Assembly (NCBI RefSeq): GCF_051903065.1
Contig: NZ_CP178438.1
Length of the DNA stretch: 64,000 nt
Reading direction: 5' to 3' (one strand)
Origin: Escherichia coli
GTDB lineage: Bacteria; Pseudomonadota; Gammaproteobacteria; Enterobacterales; Enterobacteriaceae
In this document: in pieces, positions 895 through 49,141 of the stretch
How the letters are laid out: each line of letters starts with the position of its first letter
Position numbering within the stretch: the first letter of the stretch is position 1
Translations under genes and position numbers: made by a program
Notes under the pieces: generated by a model
What the model was told of the DNA's origin: nothing
Databases searched by the model: none
Seen by the model: only the letters and a program-made list of their open reading frames with translations

Positions 895-1180
895 ACAAAT
901 TCCTTACTGAAAATACTGCGCTGCACTATACGGGGTTAATAAAATAAAGCCAGCGATATTTAAGACCGCCGGACGGCTAAAATAAAATTTGCTTAATCTC
1001 AATTATCATGCGTTAATAGCTGCGTCGGTTTGAAAGACAGACAGCATACAAAGTAGTTTACTAAAGCAGTTCTCATTATCAGGCATTATCCCCTTCTTTT
1101 GAGTCTCTCTCCTGAACACTAAGTAGTTTCTGTATTAAAGCCCTGTTTGCCGAAAGGCCCAACAATGAAGGAAGTAAAAT

Positions 1181-1393
1181 ATGTCTAATAAAATGACTGG
1201 TTTAGTAAAATGGTTTAACGCAGATAAAGGTTTTGGCTTTATCACTCCTGATGATGGCAGCAAAGACGTTTTCGTCCATTTCACCGCCATCCAGAGCAAT
1301 GAATTCCGCACGCTGAACGAAAATCAGAAAGTTGAATTTTCTATTGAGCAGGGGCAACGTGGCCCCGCGGCAGCGAACGTTGTTACGCTCTAA
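1181..1393 (+). CDS. cspG: Cold-shock protein CspG (70 aa)
   Basis: Track [37 protein letters not shown]...; the roughly 285-bp untranslated region upstream is typical of a cold-shock gene leader. Confidence 0.93.
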
Positions 1394-1592
1394 GGTTGCC
1401 GTTATTACTCAACATCTCCATTTCCGCTGTCCATGTTGTCATGGTTCACAGTACCGTACATCGGCATTCGATGTGACGGAGCGAAACCCTTTGGGCGCTA
1501 AGTGTATTTTTTGTAAATCGACGATGATCACCTTTGATAACGTCGCGCTGCAAATACGCACTGACCATGCGCCGCTGGATTTCACAAAATAA
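1359..1592 (+). CDS. ymcE: Small zinc-ribbon protein (YmcE/Sfa-like) overlapping the 3' end of cspG; start codon uncertain (GTG 1359 or TTG 1332)
   Basis: Track ORF 1332..1592 with CPCCHG...CIFCKS Cys pairs; position immediately after cspG matches the K-12 order. Confidence 0.45.
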
Positions 1593-38087: not shown

Positions 38088-39152
38088 ATGGTAACGTCCT
38101 GTACTGGACATGTTTTAGATAATCAACGCGCCACCACTCGCGGAGTTTTCTCCTCCGGTAGTCATCTCGTCACTTTGCATTTTCAACCTCATCCTTTCTT
38201 TTCATGTGTTACCGACGCCGTAAACGGTGCGCGTAGCCGTTTTTCGGCATTTTATCCAAAAGCAAACTATGGCTTACAAGGAAGCCAACCCTCTGATGTT
38301 CGTGCGCATAATCGCGCTGCCAACGGCGCGTGTGATGAATACAAACAACTCAAGGTGCTCTCCATGGGAAGACAAAAAGCAGTGATCAAAGCTCGTCGCG
38401 AGGCAAAACGTGTGCTGAGACGGGATTCGCGCAGCCATAAGCAGCGTGAAGAAGAATCGGTCACCTCGCTTGTGCAGATGAGCGGCGTAGAAGCCATTGG
38501 TATGGCCCGCGACAGTCGCGATACCTCGCCCATCCTCGCGCGAAATGAAGCGCAATTGCACTATCTAAAGGCTATTGAGAGTAAGCAGCTGATATTCGCT
38601 ACGGGCGAAGCCGGGTGCGGAAAAACCTGGATCAGTGCAGCAAAAGCGGCAGAGGCCCTGATACATAAGGATGTCGACAGGATTATCGTCACCCGTCCAG
38701 TTCTGCAAGCCGATGAAGATCTTGGTTTCTTACCTGGAGATATCGCAGAAAAGTTTGCTCCCTATTTTCGCCCGGTATACGACGTGCTGGTCCGGCGCTT
38801 AGGGGCTTCCTTTATGCAGTACTGCCTGCGACCGGAAATAGGGAAGGTGGAAATTGCGCCGTTCGCCTATATGCGTGGACGTACCTTTGAAAATGCAGTT
38901 GTCATTCTTGACGAGGCGCAGAATGTGACTGCCGCGCAAATGAAAATGTTTTTAACCCGCCTCGGGGAGAACGTGACGGTTATCGTTAACGGTGATATCA
39001 CGCAATGCGATTTACCTCGCGGCGTGCGCTCCGGATTAAGTGACGCACTGGAACGTTTCGAAGAAGATGAAATGGTCGGGATCGTCCGATTCGGTAAAGA
39101 GGATTGCGTACGTTCGGCACTTTGCCAACGTACGCTGCATGCATACAGTTAA
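38088..39152 (+). CDS. phoH: PhoH (phosphate-starvation-inducible ATPase); a shorter product from an internal start is possible
   Basis: 354-aa track ORF with Walker A GEAGCGKT and PhoH-like core; internal in-frame MGRQKAVIK near 38365. Confidence 0.88.
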   Translation: MVTSCTGHVLDNQRATTRGVFSSGSHLVTLHFQPHPFFSCVTDAVNGARSRFSAFYPKANYGLQGSQPSDVRAHNRAANGACDEYKQLKVLSMGRQKAVIKARREAKRVLRRDSRSHKQREEESVTSLVQMSGVEAIGMARDSRDTSPILARNEAQLHYLKAIESKQLIFATGEAGCGKTWISAAKAAEALIHKDVDRIIVTRPVLQADEDLGFLPGDIAEKFAPYFRPVYDVLVRRLGASFMQYCLRPEIGKVEIAPFAYMRGRTFENAVVILDEAQNVTAAQMKMFLTRLGENVTVIVNGDITQCDLPRGVRSGLSDALERFEEDEMVGIVRFGKEDCVRSALCQRTLHAYS

Positions 39153-39616: not shown

Positions 39617-40942
39617 TTAACCTCTCAGAATCCCGCGATCGGGACTTACCCAACGGGCGCGTTGCTTTTTAGGCATCAACATGACTCGTGTAAATGATAC
39701 CAATGTCGTTGCCAGGCTCAGCATCCAGAAAATAACCGGGAACCAAATAATCCAGAAAAGCGATGAAGTCAGATTATGCTCATAGCGATTCTCAATCATC
39801 AGGCTGACAATAAATTGCAGTAAACATAACGTACACAATAATATTCCGGCAGTATGTGTCGCAGCGATATGTGTCAATTCAATATTTAACGGTACACCGG
39901 CAAGTTGGACTGCGTAAATAATGAAACCGACCAGGCAGGTGAAGGCCCATATTGTCGTCAGGCAGTATTCAAAAAACAGTGGCCACATTCGAAAGTTTTC
40001 TTTGCGCCACAACCTTGTCATATTTTTGAGGAATACTTCTGCACCGCCCTGAGCCCAGCGCAGGCGCTGTTTCCACAGCCCTTTTAACGTTTCAGGCATT
40101 AATATCCAGCACAGCGCCCGAGGCTCGTAAAAAATCGTCCACTGATTCAACTGCAGCTTCCAGCTAATATCAATATCTTCGGTGATCATATCGTCACTCC
40201 AGTAACCCACTTCTGCCAGGGCGCTGCGACGAAATGCGGCAATAACACCGGAAACGGTAAATACGTTTCCATAGATACGCTGGGTTCGCTTGATCAAACC
40301 AATAATTGAGGAATACTCGCCAACCTGAATTTTACCCACCAGGGTAGAGCGTGTGCGAATACGAGGATTACCGGTTACGGCACCCACACGCGGGTTGTAC
40401 AACATCGGTTCCACAATATATGCCGCCGCATCGCGGTCTAATAACGCGTCGCCATCAATGCACACCAGATATTCACTTTTCGCCGCGGCAGCTCCGGTTT
40501 TAAGCGCAATGGCTTTCCCCTGGTTTTGCGCCAGATGAATGACCCGCAAATGGGGAATTTGTGCAGCCATGCGATCCAGGATGGCACGGGTTTTATCTGT
40601 TGAACCGTCATTTACGGCAATAACTTCAATGTTCTCATAACGCTGTGCTAAAGCGGCGTGTATGGTTTCCTCAACGTTTTTCTCCTCATTAAAACAGGGA
40701 ATGATAATGGAGATAGACGGGTTATCTTTCAACTGGGGGGCTGGTGCGTTTTCTCCCCACGGCCAGTGGCGTTCACGATAGACCCAGAAATAGACGCCGC
40801 CAACAATCCACATAATGGACATAAAAAACGGCCAGAAGAAAACGAACCTCATCATCAGTTCACCAGAGTGAAAGTACGCTACGCATAGGGGGATGCATAA
40901 CACCAGACATAATATAAAAAACGATACGATGCGATTAATCAT
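39617..40942 (-). CDS. pgaC: Poly-beta-1,6-N-acetylglucosamine synthase PgaC (GT2 glycosyltransferase)
   Basis: 441-aa ORF with GT2 motifs (DGSTD, DGD, QRLRW). Confidence 0.93.
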
Positions 40943-42953
40943 TTTTCGGATACCAGGCTGTTGAAAACTCAGGACGAATAACGTCTATTTCAGGTTGGTT
41001 ATGCAGAAAATTGTCGGGATAATAACCATAGTTTTTCACTCCATTCAGTTGTAATAGGCTCATCCAGTGAGCGAGTTGTTGCGAAGAAATAGCCTGATGC
41101 TGACCATTTTTCTGCCAGTTTTGTGCCTGTAATTCTAAAATAGATTTGTCTTTAGCCTGAGGGATGCTTTTAATCTGATTGATCAGTTGTATTAACCATT
41201 GATCAGCCGATTTTTCTGCGACACCTTCCATATAAGGCATAGCCATAATAGCAGTCCAGTCATAGCTTTTTAGGAAATCAGCATAATTCTGTGCAAACCA
41301 GGCTTCACTTTCAGGTTGTGTTACCGGAAGTGCAAAAATATTTCGTGCAGTTTTAACATGTGGACCACGAATGGCTTTTACGCGCGCACTAAGTTCTAAA
41401 GTGAAGTCAGTTAACGCACGACTTTTAAAGCGGGTCCACTGTTTAAATTGCTCCGGGTTTTGTCGAATTTCGCTCAGACTCCCGCTAAAGCCTGCTTGCT
41501 GATAAGCCGCGATAGCCGGTGCACTGGCATCTTCATAATCTGAAAGCAAAGCATCATCGTGGAACAATAGGCCATCAAAAGCAGCATGTCCGGCAAGATC
41601 TTCATATAACATGCCAACTTGTGCTCTGACCCTGTCATCAAAAGGAGAGAGACGGCGATATTGTTCAGGATGAATTTGTGCTTTTTTCTCTCCTGTTGGT
41701 AAGTATTTTACTCGCGTTAATGTGGGATCTAAATCCCAGCTTAATACCGGCATCCACGCATAGATGTTTACACCTGAGCGGGTACGTAATTGCCAGGCAA
41801 CCCGACTAAAAATATCTGCTTTCATTGGTAGCAAACGATTTGGAAACCAGACCTCTTTGACCAGCCCATCACCATCGGGATCAGCAAATGCCTGCAAATA
41901 CACGGTTGATATTTGCATATCTTTCACCCGCTGAATTAGCACATCAATATTGCGATCCATTTGCTGGCGGTTTTCGTCATAAACGTAATCAAGATCGATA
42001 TGCATTATCCGTTGTGGTGATTTTTCCTGTACGGTAATAATTTTCTGGGCAAACTCTTTTAATGAGGGATTATTGGCGATTAATACTCGCGGAATGGAAT
42101 CCAATTGCGACGCATTTGCCAAACCTGATTCAAGGGTGAAGAACATGTCATAACCGAGTTTTTTTAATTCCTCTATCGCTATGCCATTCGCTTCGCCATA
42201 AGGCCAAACAAAAACGTGTGGATTTACCTTAGCCTTTGTACGCAGGTATTCCGTCATTTTTACAGCATCCAGACGAATTCTTTCCCGGTATTCTGCTGCG
42301 GTTTCATACCGTGCGTGGTCAGTAAAATATGCACGATTTACATATACAGGCAATAAGCTGCCGGTGGCATTAGCCTGAATACCGTAGTGAGAATTCCATG
42401 TATGAGAAGCGACCTCAATGAGCGGGGAACGCGCAACTTCTCGCACTTGTTGCCACGTGGCAAAATATTCTCGATCGATCATCTCATCGCCAAATTTTAC
42501 TTGTTCATCCGCTGGCGTATCGACCCAACTGCCGACGGGGGCCCATACAGCAGGCCACTGGAAGGCCTGAAGAATTGGGAAGACGCGGGTATAAAAACTC
42601 TGGTAGCCGTCATCAAAAGTCAGCACTACTGCTTTTTCCGGTAGCGGTTTTCCTCCTCGATGTGCTTCACGAATTTGAGCAATACTGACCGGTTGATAAC
42701 CGTTCTCGCGCAGCCAGGCAAATTGTTCACGCAGTGCTGATGTCCGCACTGACATAAAACGCTGGTCGGCAGCTTCGTCTTCAACGTTATGCCATGAAAT
42801 CGCCACAAAACCATTATGCGGCCACGGTTGCTCGGCGAGTAAAGACTCGCGATCCTGTGGCGGTATAAATGATGTTTTTGACTGGCTAATGCACGCAGTG
42901 AGCATAATTATACTCACCAGCATCAGGAGATATTTATTTCCATTACGTAGCAT
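40935..42953 (-). CDS. pgaB: PGA N-deacetylase lipoprotein PgaB
   Basis: 672-aa ORF with lipoprotein signal (LTAC) and polysaccharide-deacetylase domain. Confidence 0.93.
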
Positions 42954-42961
42954 ATTTATCC

Positions 42962-45385
42962 TTAAAATCTGAATGTCATATCGAATTCAACGTATAAGTT
43001 GTGTTCTCTGTCACCGTCATAAGGTCGTTTTTCCCAGCGTAGCGTTGCGCCAGCATCAATCACGTCATTCCAGCTAATGCGTTGCCCGTAGCCGAGTTGG
43101 GTGACGACATCCGTGCCATAATGTTTTTGCCAGGAGGCACCAACACCTGCGCTGAAGATTTGCTCCCAGCTATTTTCATAGCTTCGCCATAACAAATGAC
43201 TTGCCTCAAATGCCGGAACAATATCGAACCTTTTTATAGGGTTGTAGTATGGGGTATCGTGTTCTGTATTTTGTTCGTAATACAGACTGGGTAGGAAATC
43301 GACAATCAAATATGGTGAAGACCAGATGCGTTCCTGACCCTCAATTGAGACTTCATGACGCTGGTTACTGTCGGAAAAATCAGTGAAAGCCCAGGAGACA
43401 CCGTACCTACGCCGCTCATTTTGATACCAGCGAACATAAGCCTGAGCACTGTTGCCTGTAACACCATTTTTCATTGCCCGTAATGGAACGCGGTGAGAGA
43501 GGCGTTCCAGTTGCGAACCAATACGCCAGTTATCATTAAAATCATACCAGCCAGAAAGGCGCGCGCCGGGTTTATGCTCATGATTGAAAAAGCGTTCAGC
43601 GTACTCCGCCTCGAGCCAGATATTACGTGACCGCCACTCAACACCCGCAAGCCAGTCGCGAACAATCCCTTTTCCTTCGCTAAATTGTCCATCGGCATAA
43701 CCGAATCCAGCAAAACCGCGCCAGTTATCATTCAGCGGTGGTGAATAAACGATGGTGGTTAAGTCGACATCATGTTTACCACTATCCGGGCCTTCGGCAT
43801 CAATTCCTGTTGAGCCAGCGATACGAAGCTCTGCAAGATTATGTACATCAACCGCACGTTTTAAACGTACAACGCCGGGATCTTGCGGTTCACGTTCGAC
43901 AACATCGTGCGTTAAGACCGCTGCCTGCTGCCATTCTTGTAACGTTAATGCTGTCCAGGCTTGTTCAACCTCCAGATTAATATTACGTGGCTCGATCACT
44001 TCTGCTTTTTTTAATTCATTTTCTGCCGCACGAGGCCAACCGCGGGCTTGTAACACACTCGCGTAATCAATGCGCAGTCCCTGATTTCCTGGTGCGTTAT
44101 AAGCAAGCTCTCTGGCTGTCATTTCAGCCTGAGGAAGATCATTACTATATTTTGCTACGGTTGAGAGAAACGAATGCCCCTGTAACCAGGTATCATTCGG
44201 GATGCTCGTAGGCGTGCCCAATAACCGAAGGAAAGGCGGCGAAGTATTAATGGTATGTTGGGTGACAGTTAGCGCGCCCGGATAATTCTCACTCTCCAGA
44301 TGGCTGTAAAAGAGATCCGCAAGTTCTTCATCGGATAAATCCGGGGCAATGGTCTCCTTGTGATAAAAGAGCTCTGTCATTATTGACTGTGCTTTTTTTG
44401 GCTGATGTTCTTTGAGATAAGCCGACGCAACCCAATATTGCGCCCAGGGCGGAATAATTTGTCCCGTCTTTTTTAAACGCTGATAGTGAGAAATAACGTC
44501 TTTATAACGATCGCGAGTTAATAACGCGCCAAGATGATCAATCTGAATACGCTGGTACTGGGCAGTGCGGTCTGGGTTATCGTGCCACAGAATTTCTAAT
44601 GCAGCGTATTGGGCGAGGGCGCGATCGGCAATGGCATAACGTTCACTTTCACTGCGCGTAGGCATAAACGACAGTCTGACCAGTTCGGCATGAATATCAG
44701 CGCGAATATCTGGCGTTAAATTGGCATCGTCAATCGCGGCAGCAAGTTGATTATTACGTAATGCCTGCACGTATTCTGTGGGATATTGTTGCGTAGATGC
44801 ATTTTCAGGTAATGACTCTGTCATCGCCCGTAATTCATCCTGATGACGCCCTGCCTGTTTATAGATATAGGCTTCTGCGAGTAAATTGGCTTTGTCCGGT
44901 GCTCCAGAGTTAAGCTGCTTAAGTTTAACCAGCGCAGTATCATAGTGACCCGCATCTGCCAGGGTTAAAATTTGTCCCCGTTGATAATCCTTATTTTGCG
45001 GCTCCAGAGAGAGCGCCTTTTGCCACAGTGTAAGCGAGTTTTGCCATTGTTGCAGGTTACGATAAGCGACGGCGACAGCTGCATAACCACGCGCTGGTAA
45101 TTGCTGATAACGGTAGCGGTTGTAAACGGTAATAACCTGTTTATCTTGCCCGGCCCATAAGGCAATCTGTAACCAGTCAGCAATTTGGTTATTACTGAGT
45201 GCTGATTTTTGTGCAAACCATAACAAAGCTGGCTGAGTATTTCCCTTGCGAGCTTCAATAATCAATGCATCATAGGCGTTATTAACGGCACTCTTCGCCG
45301 CGGGACTCGCTGCTAAAAATGCGGCAGTAAGAATTTTCAAAGCCCATTTGGTTTGCGGGCACCTTTTTCTGCTACTTGAATACAT
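42962..45385 (-). CDS. pgaA: PGA export outer-membrane porin PgaA (TPR plus beta-barrel)
   Basis: 807-aa ORF with signal peptide, TPR-like N-terminal half and beta-barrel C-terminus ending in F. Confidence 0.93.
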   Translation of the reverse strand: MYSSSRKRCPQTKWALKILTAAFLAASPAAKSAVNNAYDALIIEARKGNTQPALLWFAQKSALSNNQIADWLQIALWAGQDKQVITVYNRYRYQQLPARGYAAVAVAYRNLQQWQNSLTLWQKALSLEPQNKDYQRGQILTLADAGHYDTALVKLKQLNSGAPDKANLLAEAYIYKQAGRHQDELRAMTESLPENASTQQYPTEYVQALRNNQLAAAIDDANLTPDIRADIHAELVRLSFMPTRSESERYAIADRALAQYAALEILWHDNPDRTAQYQRIQIDHLGALLTRDRYKDVISHYQRLKKTGQIIPPWAQYWVASAYLKEHQPKKAQSIMTELFYHKETIAPDLSDEELADLFYSHLESENYPGALTVTQHTINTSPPFLRLLGTPTSIPNDTWLQGHSFLSTVAKYSNDLPQAEMTARELAYNAPGNQGLRIDYASVLQARGWPRAAENELKKAEVIEPRNINLEVEQAWTALTLQEWQQAAVLTHDVVEREPQDPGVVRLKRAVDVHNLAELRIAGSTGIDAEGPDSGKHDVDLTTIVYSPPLNDNWRGFAGFGYADGQFSEGKGIVRDWLAGVEWRSRNIWLEAEYAERFFNHEHKPGARLSGWYDFNDNWRIGSQLERLSHRVPLRAMKNGVTGNSAQAYVRWYQNERRRYGVSWAFTDFSDSNQRHEVSIEGQERIWSSPYLIVDFLPSLYYEQNTEHDTPYYNPIKRFDIVPAFEASHLLWRSYENSWEQIFSAGVGASWQKHYGTDVVTQLGYGQRISWNDVIDAGATLRWEKRPYDGDREHNLYVEFDMTFRF

Positions 45386-45620
45386 CCTGTATTACTCCAT
45401 GTATTGCCAAAATCTCTCTCTGTATCTAATGACAGGTAACTGAAAAGAAAGATATTTTTTGCACCTCATAATCCGTTATTAAACGCGGAAGAGAGACGTG
45501 AATTGTTGATGATGAGAAGAAGAAATGATGAGCAGAGTGTCCATATAAAATCCTTTTCTCGCCCGAAAATCCATTCCAATGATGAGGATCTTCAGGAATA
45601 CGGCATAAATCCCAATGCCT
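45386..45620 (-). promoter_or_regulatory. pgaA long 5' leader with several GGA motifs (CsrA target region)
   Basis: Leader as read on the minus strand contains repeated GGA motifs (TGGAATGGAT, AAGGATT, ACGGATT, CAGGATG overlapping the Shine-Dalgarno and start codon). Confidence 0.6.
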
Positions 45621-45973
45621 TTTTCAAAATAAGTTAGGAGTAAAATAATTAAATCAGTAAATTCCGATGCATGATTTCGGATTTTTCGAAAGTCCTGATG
45701 AAATGCAGCGTTACTGTACTCACCGATTCAATTGTTATTCCTAATATATCTATGAATGAATGTTTTATAAGGATTTCCTTATAACCATTTATAAATATTT
45801 GCAAGCCTGTCTTGTCGCAAAGAATGTATAAAGCACTAAGGTAATAATAATTGCGGTCTGCAACTATCATCATCGGTATTGTTTGTGAGTGGGTTTTCAT
45901 ATTGACAACTGTACAGTTCTTATATCTATTAATAATAGAAAGGGATCTACAACCTACAGGTTGGTGTAGCTTT

Positions 45974-47332
45974 ATGGAAAAAGACTATTTGAGAATTAGT
46001 AGTACTGTCTTAGTGAGCTTATTGTTTGGGCTTGCTTTGGTTTTGGTGAATAGTTGGTTTAATCAGCCAGGCGTTGAGGAAGTTGTTCCACGATCAACCT
46101 ATCTGATGGTAATGATTGCTTTATTTTTTATCGATACTGTTGCATTTATTTTTATGCAGTTGTATTTCATTTATGACCGTAGGCAATTTTCAAACTGTAT
46201 ACTTAGTTTGGCTTTTCTGAGTTGTTTGATTTACTTTGTTAAAACCGTCATTATCATTCAGCAAATGATTGAGGGGCGTTTGACAAGCAGTGTTGTTCAA
46301 AATGACATTGCAATTTATTATTTGTTTCGTCAGATGAGTTTGTGCATATTAATATTTCTGGCATTGGTGAATAAAGTTAGTGAAAACACAAAACAGCGCA
46401 ATTTATTTTCCAAAAAAATGACTTTGTGCATAAGTTTGTTTTTTGTTCTTGGGGGGCCGATAGTTGCTCACATACTTTCTAGCCATTATGAGAGCTACGA
46501 TTTACACATTGCCGAGTTAACCAATGAAAATGGTCAAGTGGTTTGGAAAACTTCATATGTTACCATAATGATTTTCATGTGGTTAACCTTGCTTTCGGTT
46601 AATCTATACTTTAATGGTTTACGCTATGATATCTGGAACGGAGTGACGGTGATTGCTTTTTGTGCCGTACTGTACAATGTCTCTCTTTTATTTATGAGCA
46701 GGTATAGCGTGTCCATTTGGTATATTAGTCGCACTATTGAAGTAGTCAGTAAGTTAACCGTTATGGTAATATTTATGTGCCATATATTCAGTGCGCTACG
46801 AGTAACAAAGGACATTGCACATCGCGATCCCTTAACCAATATATTTAACAGAAATTATTTTTTTAATGAACTGACGGTTCAATCAGCATCGGCCAAAAAA
46901 ACGCCTTATTGCGTCATGCTTATGGATATCGACCACTTCAAAAAAGTCAACGACACCTGGGGGCATCCGATTGGCGATCAGGTGATAAAAACAGTGGTGA
47001 ATATCATTGGGAAAAGCATACGGCCAGATGACCTTTTTGCGCGCGTCGGCGGCGAAGAGTTTGGCGTCTTGCTGACGGACATCGATACTGAACGTGCGAA
47101 AGCTTTAGCGGAAAGGATTCGGGAAAATGTTGAGCGTTTAACTGGTGATAATCCTGAATACGCCATACCACAAAAAGTGACGATTAGTATTGGCGCTGTT
47201 GTGACTCAGGGAAATGCGTTAAACCCGAATGAGATCTATCGACTGGCTGATAACGCACTATACGAGGCGAAAGAGACCGGGCGTAATAAGGTGGTTGTGA
47301 GGGATGTGGTGAATTTTTGTGAGTCACCATAA
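45974..47332 (+). CDS. dgcT: Membrane-anchored diguanylate cyclase DgcT (YcdT), GGDEF domain
   Basis: ATG 45974 (MEKDYLRISSTVLVSLLFGLALVLV...), multi-TM N-terminus, then GGDEF domain with RVGGEEFGVLL. Confidence 0.9.
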   Translation: MEKDYLRISSTVLVSLLFGLALVLVNSWFNQPGVEEVVPRSTYLMVMIALFFIDTVAFIFMQLYFIYDRRQFSNCILSLAFLSCLIYFVKTVIIIQQMIEGRLTSSVVQNDIAIYYLFRQMSLCILIFLALVNKVSENTKQRNLFSKKMTLCISLFFVLGGPIVAHILSSHYESYDLHIAELTNENGQVVWKTSYVTIMIFMWLTLLSVNLYFNGLRYDIWNGVTVIAFCAVLYNVSLLFMSRYSVSIWYISRTIEVVSKLTVMVIFMCHIFSALRVTKDIAHRDPLTNIFNRNYFFNELTVQSASAKKTPYCVMLMDIDHFKKVNDTWGHPIGDQVIKTVVNIIGKSIRPDDLFARVGGEEFGVLLTDIDTERAKALAERIRENVERLTGDNPEYAIPQKVTISIGAVVTQGNALNPNEIYRLADNALYEAKETGRNKVVVRDVVNFCESP

Positions 47333-47429: not shown

Positions 47430-49040
47430 ATGCTTATCATTGATCAGTCTGCTATCACCCGCTTTTACTGGCAATTGTACTATAATTTCTTAGGTTGTAT
47501 CACCCTGATGCGTGGGGAAACATGTATGGTATTCAACAAAAAAATGTTTGTACTCATTATAATACCAGGCATTCTGGGGGTGTTACTGTCGTTTGCTATG
47601 TCAGTATTTCAAATGAATCGAGATACGACAATTACCGCCGGTATTCTGTTAAAACAGCTTGATAATGTTACGCAAATTGTCCAGCATACGACAAAGCTTA
47701 CCTCTATTCTGGTGATGAAGCCCTGCAAAGACATTCTTGAACAGTTGATTGCTAACGGAGCATTGACTCCCTATGTTCGAACAACGGGTCTTATAGAAAA
47801 TAATTTCCAAATATGTTCTTCAGTTAGCGGTTTCAAAAAAATGAATGTTAACGATGTTTACGGTACGAGCTTTCACAATAAAAATAAAGAATCACGCATA
47901 GTATCCATTAGCGGTACAAGTTTTGTACCAGGTAAAACAGCCATAGTATTCCTTATGCCAATAGGGAATGATATGACAGCTTTTAGTATTGTAGAGTCAC
48001 GATATATCTATGATCTAATGGATGTTCTTGATGATGAGAATGATGATTCATTTTCTCTTAGCTTTACTGAAGGGCCTGCAATTATTAGTGGTGTAAATAA
48101 TAATGACAAGTTATATATGTTAAAAAAAGATTTTAATTCTGCGATCAGTCAGGCTAGTCTTACAGTTACTACGCCGATGATTTCATTATATCCCTATGTC
48201 ATTAGTAATGTGTTTTACATTCTTCCATTATCTATTCTTCTTTCTTTTATCCTGTACTTCTTATGGCAGCGCTGGATATCTCGAAAAATGTCCCTGGCAG
48301 AAGAAATTAAAAAAGGAATGTCATCTGGAGAATTTTCAGTGCATTATCAACCAGTATGTGACACGACAACAAAAGAGTGTCTGGGGGTTGAAGCGTTAAT
48401 GCGTTGGCAACGCGAAGATGGTAAAAATATATCTCCGGTAGTTTTTATCCGCGCTGCAGAAGAGGAAAATTTAATTATACCGTTAACTAAGCATCTCTTT
48501 GAACTGATTATTCAGGATGTACAAAGCTGGAAAGTGAAAAAGCCGTTTCACCTTGGGATAAATATTGCCGCGGAGCATCTTGCACATCCTGATTTTGTTG
48601 CTGATGTTTTACATATTAAAAATGCAATATCTGATAAATTTAACATTGTTCTTGAGATTACCGAACGCAATCTGGTTGAAGATACTGATCTTGCATTACA
48701 GAAAATAAATGAATTAAGGATCCATGGCTGTGAATTTGCAGTTGATGATTTTGGCACGGGATATTGTTCCCTTGGCCTTCTGCAAAAGTTGTCTGTTGAT
48801 TATCTTAAAATAGATAAAAGCTTTATAGACACACTCACTACAGCGGAAGACGAAACGCCAGTTTTAGATATTATTATTAAGCTGAGTAATCGACTCAATT
48901 TGATAACGATTGCAGAAGGTGTCAGTACTCCTCACCAGGCGGAATATCTTATTCATAATAACGTGACATTAGTTCAGGGATACTTATATGCAAAACCAAT
49001 GAAAGCGACAGAATTTTATCAGTGGTATGTAAACAGATAA
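47430..49040 (+). CDS. pdeT: CSS-motif c-di-GMP phosphodiesterase (EAL domain), PdeT/VmpA-like; start codon uncertain
   Basis: Two TM segments flanking a periplasmic domain, then an EAL domain (EALMRW, DDFGTGYCSL, KIDKSFI); intact reading frame. Confidence 0.78.
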   Translation: MLIIDQSAITRFYWQLYYNFLGCITLMRGETCMVFNKKMFVLIIIPGILGVLLSFAMSVFQMNRDTTITAGILLKQLDNVTQIVQHTTKLTSILVMKPCKDILEQLIANGALTPYVRTTGLIENNFQICSSVSGFKKMNVNDVYGTSFHNKNKESRIVSISGTSFVPGKTAIVFLMPIGNDMTAFSIVESRYIYDLMDVLDDENDDSFSLSFTEGPAIISGVNNNDKLYMLKKDFNSAISQASLTVTTPMISLYPYVISNVFYILPLSILLSFILYFLWQRWISRKMSLAEEIKKGMSSGEFSVHYQPVCDTTTKECLGVEALMRWQREDGKNISPVVFIRAAEEENLIIPLTKHLFELIIQDVQSWKVKKPFHLGINIAAEHLAHPDFVADVLHIKNAISDKFNIVLEITERNLVEDTDLALQKINELRIHGCEFAVDDFGTGYCSLGLLQKLSVDYLKIDKSFIDTLTTAEDETPVLDIIIKLSNRLNLITIAEGVSTPHQAEYLIHNNVTLVQGYLYAKPMKATEFYQWYVNR

Positions 49041-49141
49041 ATAATTAACCAATATTGGAATGTTTTTTTATTGCCTTAAAATATAAACAAAGCCATCAGA
49101 AGGTTATTATCTGATGACAAGCGCAATGATCAACACTACTG

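What the first reader, a model, noticed from the sequence alone, without database searches (positions are those of the whole stretch)
45386..45620. Long pgaA leader rich in GGA motifs
The roughly 235-nt leader of pgaABCD contains several GGA motifs, including one overlapping the Shine-Dalgarno sequence and start codon, matching the known CsrA-repressed architecture of this operon. The small minus-strand ORF 45649..45900 upstream is AT-rich and probably not coding.
Basis: established knowledge. Interest (0 to 1): 0.25.

Follow-up and report, generated by a model that had tools for sequence, protein, structure and literature searches.

The report
Known CsrA-controlled pgaA mRNA leader
This is the already well-studied untranslated leader of the E. 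coli pgaABCD biofilm-polysaccharide operon, through which the RNA-binding protein CsrA blocks translation and triggers early transcription termination. The copy in this window is almost identical to the characterised K-12 one, so the finding is correct but ordinary.

Summary
The window is E. coli chromosome. pgaA lies on the minus strand (42962..45385), and the 235 nt upstream (45386..45620, minus strand) match the experimentally characterised 234-nt K-12 pgaA leader except for one extra A in an A-tract and one C/A change.

The leader plus start codon holds eight GGA motifs (+9, +44, +49, +68, +79, +147, +223, +234). About 2.6 are expected from base composition, though only weakly more than dinucleotide shuffles give (5.5).

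- The pair at +68/+79 sits in the published left arm (61-81) of the attenuator hairpin, which my folding recovers.
- The pyrimidine-rich right arm and rut region (+82..+135) has 20 C and 3 G.

The 83-codon minus-strand ORF upstream is not coding.

Diverged pga leaders (other E. coli alleles, a Citrobacter) keep the +68 and AUG-overlapping GGAs, while other sites turn over.

I followed one possibly new lead: a 21-codon upstream ORF whose ribosome-binding site and AUG coincide with CsrA sites 1 and 2 and which covers the rut. It shows no codon-level constraint and is probably not functional.

Novelty: already known.

The parts
45386..45620 (-). pgaA 5' leader (5' UTR), 235 nt. +1 is taken as the A at 45620 (AGGCAUUGGG...).
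   Evidence: Differs from the K-12 MG1655 234-nt leader by one extra A and one C/A change. The UTR length and the 61-81 / 82-107 segments are from PMC4052769.
42962..45385 (-). pgaA coding sequence (807 aa), first gene of pgaABCD.
   Evidence: ORF list. RefSeq annotation of identical DNA. 1.44% nucleotide difference from K-12 pgaA.
45602..45619 (-). 5'-terminal hairpin (+2..+19) with the GGA at +9 in its loop.
   Evidence: Present in the MFE and centroid folds. P(unpaired) of the GGA is 0.96. The stem is kept in 8 of 8 diverged leaders with one compensatory G-C to A-U change, and the loop GGA in 7 of 8. It is not among the published sites as located in PMC4052769.
45562..45596 (-). Second predicted hairpin (+25..+59); the GGAs at +44 and +49 lie in its 3' half.
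   Evidence: Folds. About 75% of cells are paired across lineages, with some two-sided changes. The +49 GGA is fully paired.
45540..45560 (-). Left arm of the attenuator hairpin (+61..+81), with CsrA sites 1 (AAGGA, GGA +68) and 2 (AUGGAC, GGA +79).
   Evidence: Segment definition and experiments in PMC4052769. GGA positions. The hairpin is recovered by ViennaRNA at -6.4 kcal/mol.
45514..45539 (-). [quoted passage not shown]
   Evidence: PMC4052769. It pairs with the left arm in the folds.
45486..45539 (-). C-rich, G-poor rut region (+82..+135): 20 C, 3 G, 15 YC dimers.
   Evidence: Composition scan. The published C>G bubble spans +50..+130.
45472..45474 (-). GGA at +147 (AACGGAUUAUGAGG), probably one of the two middle CsrA sites.
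   Evidence: The assignment to a published site rests on my recollection of Wang 2005, which the library does not hold. The motif is lost in the D72-type alleles.
45396..45398 (-). GGA at +223 inside the pgaA Shine-Dalgarno sequence (AUGGAGU).
   Evidence: Sites over the SD and AUG mediate translational repression. It is conserved in all Escherichia-type leaders except L011, which has GGG.
45385..45387 (-). GGA at +234 overlapping the pgaA start codon (CAGGAUG).
   Evidence: ACAGGAUG is invariant in every Escherichia-type leader examined.
45621..45680 (-). Core promoter region (-60..-1) of pgaABCD.
   Evidence: More conserved than the distal intergenic DNA: 3.0% against 7.6% mean pairwise difference. 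No strong sigma-70 consensus on this strand, which fits the NhaR-activated promoter described in PMC7652899. The window has C at -13 and -20 where K-12 has T and A.
45479..45544 (-). 21-codon upstream ORF (MDTLLIISSSHHQQFTSLFRV*), AUG at +77. Its SD-like AAGGA is CsrA site 1, its AUG overlaps site 2, and it spans the rut.
   Evidence: No codon-level constraint. The start codon is lost in strain 14EC033. A published AUG mutant had no effect. Listed as an anatomical feature, probably not functional.
45649..45900 (-). 83-codon ORF over the pgaA promoter and upstream region: not a gene.
   Evidence: Truncated or absent in other alleles, no third-position bias, never annotated.

Best explanation
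[quoted passage not shown] It works as the published two-tier CsrA switch.

Tier 1, termination. On the nascent RNA, CsrA binds the GGA pair at +68/+79 in the left arm of a marginally stable hairpin (+61..+107). This stops that arm from pairing with the CU-rich right arm, exposes the C-rich, G-poor rut region (+82..+135), and lets Rho terminate inside the leader.

Tier 2, translation. [quoted passage not shown]

When CsrA is titrated (by CsrB, CsrC or McaS), the hairpin hides the rut and the ribosome-binding site is free, so the operon is expressed.

What was shown here: the sequence identity, the motif positions, the predicted hairpin and the C>G composition. What is inferred: the mechanism itself, carried over from experiments on the near-identical K-12 sequence.
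For: - Identity: the window is E. coli. The 701-nt region is 100% identical to several complete genomes annotated pgaA/dgcT. The leader differs from K-12 MG1655 at 2 of 235 positions.
- Literature for K-12: a 234-nt UTR with six CsrA sites, the SD and AUG sites needed for translational repression, sites in 61-81, rut in 82-107 and beyond, and CsrA-dependent Rho termination shown in vitro and in vivo (PMC4052769; PMC7652899; PMC12360218).
- GGA motifs sit exactly in those segments, and both pairs are spaced 11 nt, within the published 10-63 nt bridging range.
- ViennaRNA recovers the discontinuous 61-107 hairpin, both in isolation (-6.4 kcal/mol) and in the full leader. The SD and AUG GGAs are mostly unpaired (0.64 and 0.81), while the +68 GGA is paired (0.02), as the remodelling model requires.
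- The segment +82..+135 has 20 C against 3 G.
- Conservation: the leader varies less than the distal intergenic DNA (3.3% against 7.6%). In diverged pga leaders (D72-type, L018-type, L011, Citrobacter sp. Awk 4), AAGGA at +68 and ACAGGAUG are invariant, and the lower attenuator stem stays about 80% paired with one compensatory pair.
Against: - No experiment was done on this strain. The TSS is assumed from K-12.
- GGA enrichment is not significant against dinucleotide shuffles (P = 0.10).
- Neither the hairpin nor the whole leader folds better than shuffled sequence (z = -0.49 and 0.06). This is expected for a structure described as deliberately marginal, but it gives no independent support.
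- RNAalifold does not recover the attenuator hairpin as a consensus.
- Site 2 (+79) and the +147 GGA are lost in diverged alleles, so not every site is indispensable.
- Two promoter substitutions (-13, -20) are particular to this minority allele, and their effect is unknown.
- I could not verify the exact positions of the two middle published sites, because Wang 2005 is not held.
Confidence: 0.94

Rival explanations
1. An upstream ORF contributes to, or replaces, the hairpin mechanism. Ribosomes translating the 21-codon uORF (AUG +77 to UAA +142) would cover the rut and block Rho. CsrA bound at site 1 (the uORF's SD-like AAGGA) and site 2 (overlapping its AUG) would repress that translation and so unmask the rut.
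For: - Layout: AAGGA, a 6-nt spacer, then AUG. The site 1/2 arrangement mirrors the site 5/6 arrangement on the pgaA SD and AUG, and the ORF spans +77..+142, that is, the whole rut.
- An AUG-started ORF of 19-21 codons ending at or near the same stop is present in 11 of 12 distinct alleles across five lineages. This includes an in-frame 3-nt deletion and a TAA to TGA change in the L018-type allele.
- In the D72-type, L018-type and Citrobacter leaders, the site 2 GGA is lost but the AUG is kept.
Against: - All three reading frames are stop-free across the pyrimidine-rich rut, so an open frame is expected anyway (my reading of the sequence).
- Substitutions mapped on a tree give 8 synonymous to 15 non-synonymous in the uORF frame, against 5:18 and 6:17 in the other frames. 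The expected synonymous fraction is 0.26-0.30. Changes fall 7/7/9 over the codon positions.
- Strain 14EC033 has AUG changed to AGG.
- Figueroa-Bossi et al. mutated this AUG and saw no effect on pgaA expression, and they reproduced CsrA-dependent termination in a ribosome-free in vitro system (PMC4052769).
Confidence: 0.1
2. The GGA richness is a by-product of composition, and the stretch is merely a long, unconstrained spacer between divergent genes.
For: Dinucleotide-preserving shuffles already give 5.5 GGA, against 8 observed (P = 0.10). There is no Rfam family and no folding z-score signal.
Against: The sequence is near-identical to a leader with direct binding, footprint, mutational and in vitro termination data. 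The leader is more conserved than the neighbouring intergenic DNA. GGAs at +68 and at the AUG are invariant across leaders that are otherwise only about 75% identical or less.
Confidence: 0.02
3. The region encodes something else: the 83-aa minus-strand ORF 45649..45900, or an antisense RNA ending at the plus-strand terminator-like hairpin 45602..45619 followed by TTTTT.
For: The ORF exists in this strain. The scan reports one terminator-like site on the plus strand, where 0.2 are expected.
Against: The ORF is truncated in all other alleles and shows no codon bias. The plus-strand 'terminator' is simply the reverse complement of the leader's 5' hairpin next to the A-run at -4..+1. The T-run is not kept in the D72-type or L011 leaders, and no upstream plus-strand gene or conserved promoter feeds it.
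Confidence: 0.02

Closest known systems
E. coli K-12 pgaABCD leader (Wang et al. 2005; Figueroa-Bossi et al. 2014, PMC4052769)
   Same: Same locus and gene order (dgcT divergent, then pgaABCD). 233 of 234 bases are identical. The same GGA motifs, the same 61-107 hairpin, the same C>G rut, and the same SD and AUG sites.
   Different: One extra A in the A-tract (+161..+166, so the UTR is 235 nt), C instead of A at +190, and two promoter substitutions (-13, -20). This allele is found at 99% identity or more in only 132 of 4298 genomes that carry the region.
Simple CsrA-repressed leaders (for example glgC, cstA, nhaR, dgcT/ycdT)
   Same: A GGA motif over the Shine-Dalgarno sequence competes with the ribosome.
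   Different: pgaA has six published sites and a second, transcriptional tier (Rho). ycdT, next door, is described as having a single consensus copy (PMC6028588).
CsrB/CsrC-type CsrA-sponge RNAs
   Same: Many GGA motifs on one RNA, some in hairpin loops.
   Different: Here they are the 5' part of an mRNA, at lower density (8 in 238 nt, against 18 and 14 sites in CsrB and CsrC). No Rfam family matches.
Other regulated Rho-dependent attenuators in 5' leaders (riboswitch-, sRNA- or uORF-controlled; reviewed in PMC12360218)
   Same: A rut site in a long leader whose accessibility is switched.
   Different: In pgaA the switch is a protein that unmasks the rut by melting a hairpin. A uORF-based variant was tested here by comparative analysis and is not supported.

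Membership tests
E. coli pgaABCD 5' leader / CsrA-responsive Rho attenuator | Lies directly upstream of pgaA, the first gene of pgaABCD. | tested here: met
   ORFs of 807, 672 and 441 aa on the minus strand; RefSeq annotates them pgaA, pgaB and pgaC on identical DNA.
E. coli pgaABCD 5' leader / CsrA-responsive Rho attenuator | Sequence homology to the characterised 234-nt K-12 leader. | tested here: met
   2 differences in 235 aligned positions.
E. coli pgaABCD 5' leader / CsrA-responsive Rho attenuator | Two GGA-containing CsrA sites in segment +61..+81. | tested here: met
   GGA at +68 and +79. Segment definition from PMC4052769.
E. coli pgaABCD 5' leader / CsrA-responsive Rho attenuator | Discontinuous hairpin pairing +61..+81 with +82..+107. 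| tested here: met
   It is the MFE structure of the isolated segment and of the full leader. The stability is no better than shuffles, as expected for a marginal structure.
E. coli pgaABCD 5' leader / CsrA-responsive Rho attenuator | C-rich, G-poor rut region downstream of the first two sites. | tested here: met
   +82..+135 has 20 C and 3 G. C exceeds G in all 78-nt windows from +33 to +201.
E. coli pgaABCD 5' leader / CsrA-responsive Rho attenuator | [quoted passage not shown] | tested here: met
   AUGGAGU at +223 and CAGGAUG at +234.
E. coli pgaABCD 5' leader / CsrA-responsive Rho attenuator | Transcription start about 234 nt upstream of the AUG. | not testable with these tools
   Taken from the literature for K-12. 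No strong sigma-70 consensus was found by the scan.
E. coli pgaABCD 5' leader / CsrA-responsive Rho attenuator | Physical CsrA binding and CsrA-dependent Rho termination. | not testable with these tools
   Shown for K-12 RNA; inferred here from sequence identity.
Rfam-curated cis-regulatory RNA or sRNA family | A covariance-model match at or near the gathering score. | tested here: not met
   Only a chance-level hit (Bp1_738, 14.8 bits against 45, E = 6.7) in 44000..47000, and nothing at gathering score in the leader. Rfam has no pgaA-leader family.
Protein-coding small ORF (leader peptide) | Codon-level purifying selection and a conserved start codon. | tested here: not met
   Synonymous to non-synonymous counts are 8:15, against 5:18 and 6:17 in the other frames. 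One natural allele has AUG changed to AGG.

The most novel reading that the evidence does not exclude
The leader may hold functional elements beyond the six published CsrA sites. Two candidates:

(a) A 5'-terminal hairpin (+2..+19) presents a GGA in its loop. This is the classical high-affinity CsrA presentation. It is conserved in 7 of 8 diverged leaders with a compensatory stem change, and it could be a seventh CsrA site or a stability element.

(b) A 21-codon uORF has a ribosome-binding site and AUG that coincide with CsrA sites 1 and 2, and it covers the rut. CsrA could therefore also gate Rho access through uORF translation.

Neither is excluded. Candidate (b) is disfavoured by the lack of codon-level constraint, by a natural start-codon loss and by a published negative AUG mutant.
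Probability: 0.15. Interest if true: 0.35.

Novelty: already known. Interest (0 to 1): 0.1.

Why it matters
The pgaA leader is a textbook example of multi-tier post-transcriptional control of biofilm formation, and the first case of a protein that unmasks a Rho entry site. Finding it intact in this strain only says that the strain keeps the standard CsrA control of PNAG synthesis.

The comparative data add a little. The +68 site, the AUG-overlapping site and the 5' hairpin are the evolutionarily stable core, while sites 2 and 3 turn over. This could guide anyone dissecting which of the six sites matter.

Tried and rejected
- **Rfam**, both an E-value search of 44000..47000 and a gathering-score search of the whole window: no family covers the leader.
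- **Sigma-70 scan:** no minus-strand promoter match upstream of 45620. This is not informative for an activator-dependent promoter.
- **Plus-strand terminator-like hairpin** 45602..45619: rejected as the mirror image of the leader's 5' hairpin. Its T-run is not conserved.
- **83-aa ORF:** rejected as coding.
- **Genome-contig scan with PgaA residues 1-300:** only one locus was returned (L007), so it gave little diversity.
- **Metagenome contigs DNA-pattern scan** for the uORF start block: 120 loci, of which 119 are chance matches and one is a D72-type copy. A dead end.
- **uORF as a conserved peptide:** tested with 12 alleles and rejected for lack of codon-level signal.
- **RNAalifold on 8 diverged leaders:** it recovered only the 5' hairpin and part of hairpin 2, not the attenuator. 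Explicit pair counting gave modest support, and that support is biased because the structure was derived from one of the sequences.
- **More distant pga operons** (PgaA 57% identical or less: Enterobacter, Klebsiella, Atlantibacter, Citrobacter portucalensis, Serratia): their leaders are not alignable and are only sometimes GGA-rich, so they neither support nor refute the E. coli mechanism.
- **Primary papers:** Wang 2005, Goller 2006 and Dubey 2005 are not held. The exact published coordinates of CsrA sites 3 and 4 and of the NhaR sites could not be checked.
- **Strain ECNB21-M121 annotation:** I first took it for the right-hand part of the window, which was wrong beyond about 51030. I corrected this with strain 23CRST027.

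Full report
**What is in the window.** The region is E. coli chromosome. A 701-nt query spanning the finding is 100% identical to several complete genomes and matches 4255 of 5426 E. coli genomes. Every listed match is annotated pgaA on one side and dgcT on the other. The 807-codon minus-strand ORF 42962..45385 is pgaA, followed by pgaB (40935..42953) and pgaC (39617..40942). dgcT (ycdT) starts divergently at 45976 on the plus strand.

**Check of the observation.** On the minus strand, the 235-nt stretch plus the start codon holds eight GGA motifs: +9, +44, +49, +68, +79, +147, +223 and +234, counting +1 as the A at 45620. The last two are separate motifs. AUGGAGU lies in the Shine-Dalgarno sequence, and CAGGAUG has an A that is the first base of the AUG. 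Base composition alone predicts 2.6 GGA (P about 4e-4). Dinucleotide-preserving shuffles predict 5.5 (P = 0.10). Only 0.4% of same-sized windows on this strand of the 64-kb window reach eight. The count is real but only moderately unusual, so the case rests on homology rather than on motif statistics.

**Identity with the characterised leader.** Aligned with K-12 MG1655, the leader differs at two places: an extra A in an A-tract (+161..+166) and C for A at +190. That makes it 235 nt instead of 234. The literature held in the library describes the K-12 leader as follows:
- It is a 234-nt 5' UTR with six CsrA sites.
- The two distal sites cover the SD and the AUG and mediate translational repression.
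- The two 5'-proximal sites lie in segment 61-81, the left arm of a discontinuous hairpin 61-107.
- The right arm (82-107) is the 5' half of a rut site inside a C>G bubble (+50..+130).
- CsrA binding melts the hairpin, exposes the rut and induces Rho-dependent termination, as shown in vitro and in vivo.

These points come from PMC4052769, PMC7652899 and PMC12360218.

With my numbering these segments fit the window sequence exactly. GAGAAAAGGAUUUUAUAUGGA (61-81) carries the GGAs at +68 and +79, and CACUCUGCUCAUCAUUUCUUCUUCUC (82-107) is the partner. ViennaRNA returns this two-stem hairpin as the minimum-free-energy structure, both for the isolated segment (-6.4 kcal/mol) and within the full leader. 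The segment +82..+135 has 20 C, 3 G and 15 YC dimers. In the ensemble the +68 GGA is paired (P unpaired 0.02), while the SD and AUG GGAs are largely free (0.64 and 0.81). This is what the remodelling model expects. Both functional pairs (+68/+79 and +223/+234) are 11 nt apart, within the 10-63 nt range quoted for a CsrA dimer. The folding energies are no better than shuffled sequence (z = -0.49 and 0.06). That gives no independent support, but it agrees with the published view that the hairpin is deliberately marginal.

**The upstream ORF.** The 83-codon minus-strand ORF 45649..45900 overlies the promoter and upstream region. In K-12, UTI89, MS14384 and ETEC4077 it stops after 44-47 codons, and in a diverged allele after 3. 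Variable sites fall 18/12/14 over the codon positions, and no RefSeq record annotates it.

**Evidence from related sequences.** Within E. coli the leader (3.3% mean pairwise difference among five alleles) and the core promoter (3.0%) are better conserved than the distal intergenic DNA (7.6%), which is unusually variable.

About 120 E. coli genomes carry a diverged allele (D72-type, about 75-79% identical in the leader). Others carry an L018-type copy as an extra locus. I also retrieved leaders upstream of PgaA proteins 77% (L011) and 74% (Citrobacter sp. Awk 4, L008) identical to the query. Across all of these:
- AAGGA at +68 and ACAGGAUG at the start codon are invariant.
- The SD GGA is kept in all but L011.
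- The +79 GGA is lost in the D72-type, L018-type and Citrobacter leaders.
- The +147 GGA is lost in the D72-type leaders.
- The D72-type leaders gain a new AGGAAAG 10 nt upstream of site 1, so a GGA pair is restored by turnover.

Counting pairs of the window-derived structure on eight diverged leaders gives 78% of cells paired, against 38-52% for slid controls. The 5' hairpin is 90% paired with one compensatory change, and the lower attenuator stem is 80% paired with one compensatory pair. This test is biased towards the structure, because the structure was derived from one of the sequences, and RNAalifold itself recovers only the 5' hairpin.

In pga operons whose PgaA is 57% identical or less (Enterobacter, Klebsiella, Atlantibacter, C. 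portucalensis, Serratia), the leaders cannot be aligned. Several have twin GGAs near the start and others have none. The six-site architecture is therefore specific to the Escherichia-type lineage.

**A lead that I followed and largely rejected.** The AUG at +77 opens a 21-codon uORF (MDTLLIISSSHHQQFTSLFRV*, window 45544..45479). Its SD-like AAGGA is CsrA site 1, its AUG overlaps site 2, and it covers the rut.

In its favour, the layout mirrors sites 5 and 6 on pgaA itself. An AUG-started ORF of 19-21 codons is present in 11 of 12 distinct alleles, including an in-frame 3-nt deletion and a TAA-to-TGA change in the L018-type allele.

Against it:
- All three frames are stop-free across this pyrimidine-rich stretch.
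- Substitutions mapped on a tree are 8 synonymous to 15 non-synonymous in the uORF frame, against 5:18 and 6:17 in the other frames, with 26-30% synonymous expected. Changes fall 7/7/9 over the codon positions.
- Strain 14EC033 has AUG changed to AGG.
- Figueroa-Bossi et al. report that mutating this AUG had no effect, and their ribosome-free in vitro system reproduces the regulation.

I keep it only as a low-probability reading.

A second small observation is the 5'-terminal hairpin (+2..+19), which presents the +9 GGA in its loop (P unpaired 0.96). It is conserved in 7 of 8 diverged leaders. It lies upstream of what the 2014 paper calls the two 5'-proximal CsrA sites, so it may be an unreported site or simply a 5' stabilising hairpin.

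**Comparison with what is known, and verdict.** This is the known pgaA leader, not a relative of it. Every sequence-level defining feature was tested and met. The two functional features (TSS, and CsrA and Rho action) cannot be tested with these tools and are inferred from near-identity. Rfam has no family for it. Differences from K-12 are two leader polymorphisms and two promoter substitutions (-13, -20), in a minority allele found at 99% identity or more in 132 of 4298 genomes.

It omitted the Rho-termination tier, and it counted as 'matching' some GGAs that are not published sites. Novelty: already known. Interest: low.

Noticed in passing
window 45681..45975: The distal part of the pgaA-dgcT intergenic region is hypervariable among E. 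coli: 7.6% mean pairwise difference among five otherwise close alleles and 30 differences from K-12 in 295 columns. This compares with 1.4% in the pgaA coding sequence and 3% in the leader and core promoter. The cause is unknown; recombination, relaxed constraint or diversifying selection on regulator sites are all possible.
   Followed up: partly
window 45455..45460 (leader +161..+166): The A-tract in the leader varies in length among E. coli alleles: 5 A in K-12 and UTI89, 6 here, 8 in ETEC4077, 9 in MS14384. The UTR is therefore 234-238 nt long. This could be a slipped-strand polymorphism; its effect is unknown.
   Followed up: partly
window 45602..45619 (minus strand, leader +2..+19): A 5'-terminal hairpin carries a GGA in its loop. 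It is conserved across diverged pga leaders with one compensatory stem change, and it is not among the published CsrA sites as located in PMC4052769.
   Followed up: partly
window 45479..45544 (minus strand): A 21-codon uORF has an SD and AUG that coincide with CsrA sites 1 and 2, and it spans the rut. It is kept open in 11 of 12 alleles but shows no codon-level constraint, and one natural allele (strain 14EC033, L145) has AUG changed to AGG.
   Followed up: yes
window 45901..45975 (plus strand): The dgcT (ycdT) upstream region has a perfect TTGACA at 45903..45908, a single GGA (AAAGGGAUCU) and a hairpin (CUACAACCUACAGGUUGGUGUAG) just before the AUG. ycdT is listed in the literature as a CsrA target with a single consensus copy (PMC6028588). 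The two divergent transcripts therefore both respond to CsrA.
   Followed up: no
L003, L141-L148 (E. coli D72-type alleles); L018/L149 (L018-type): About 120 E. coli genomes carry a pga leader and pgaA only about 75-80% identical to the common allele. Some genomes hold 2-3 pga leaders. In E. coli O78 strain 3, the L018-type dgcT-pgaA module sits on an IS-flanked island next to fimH and gntP and is decayed, with a frameshifted GGDEF gene and a truncated pgaA.
   Followed up: partly
L148 (E. coli 19SZHZ713Rt), about leader +64: An IS5 element is inserted inside the pgaA leader just upstream of CsrA site 1. It separates the native promoter and the first ~64 nt from the attenuator.
   Followed up: no
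window 47526..49040 (+) and 49100..51000: Downstream of dgcT this strain has an intact pdeT (EAL c-di-GMP phosphodiesterase), then a frameshifted YqeJ-family gene, a truncated wHTH gene and a frameshifted IS1A. K-12 has IS3D, ymdE and ycdU at this place.
   Followed up: partly
window 56930..57021 (-), 38954..39147 (-), 1024..1447 (+): Rfam gathering-score hits elsewhere in the window: ES056 sRNA upstream of csgD (in its leader region), Ysr251 antisense family near the 3' end of the pga operon, and a cspA-type thermoregulator. The window also holds csgDEFG/csgBAC and ymdA, a published CsrA-activated gene (PMC7492729), so several CsrA- and biofilm-linked loci are clustered here.
   Followed up: no
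window about 51030..51145 and beyond: Strains that are 100% identical over the pgaA leader differ to the right of IS1A. ECNB21-M121 has an integrase-led island (TOTE conflict-system remnant, AAA protein) and no tRNA-Ser where the window has tRNA-Ser(GGA) 51243..51330 followed by ghrA.
   Followed up: partly
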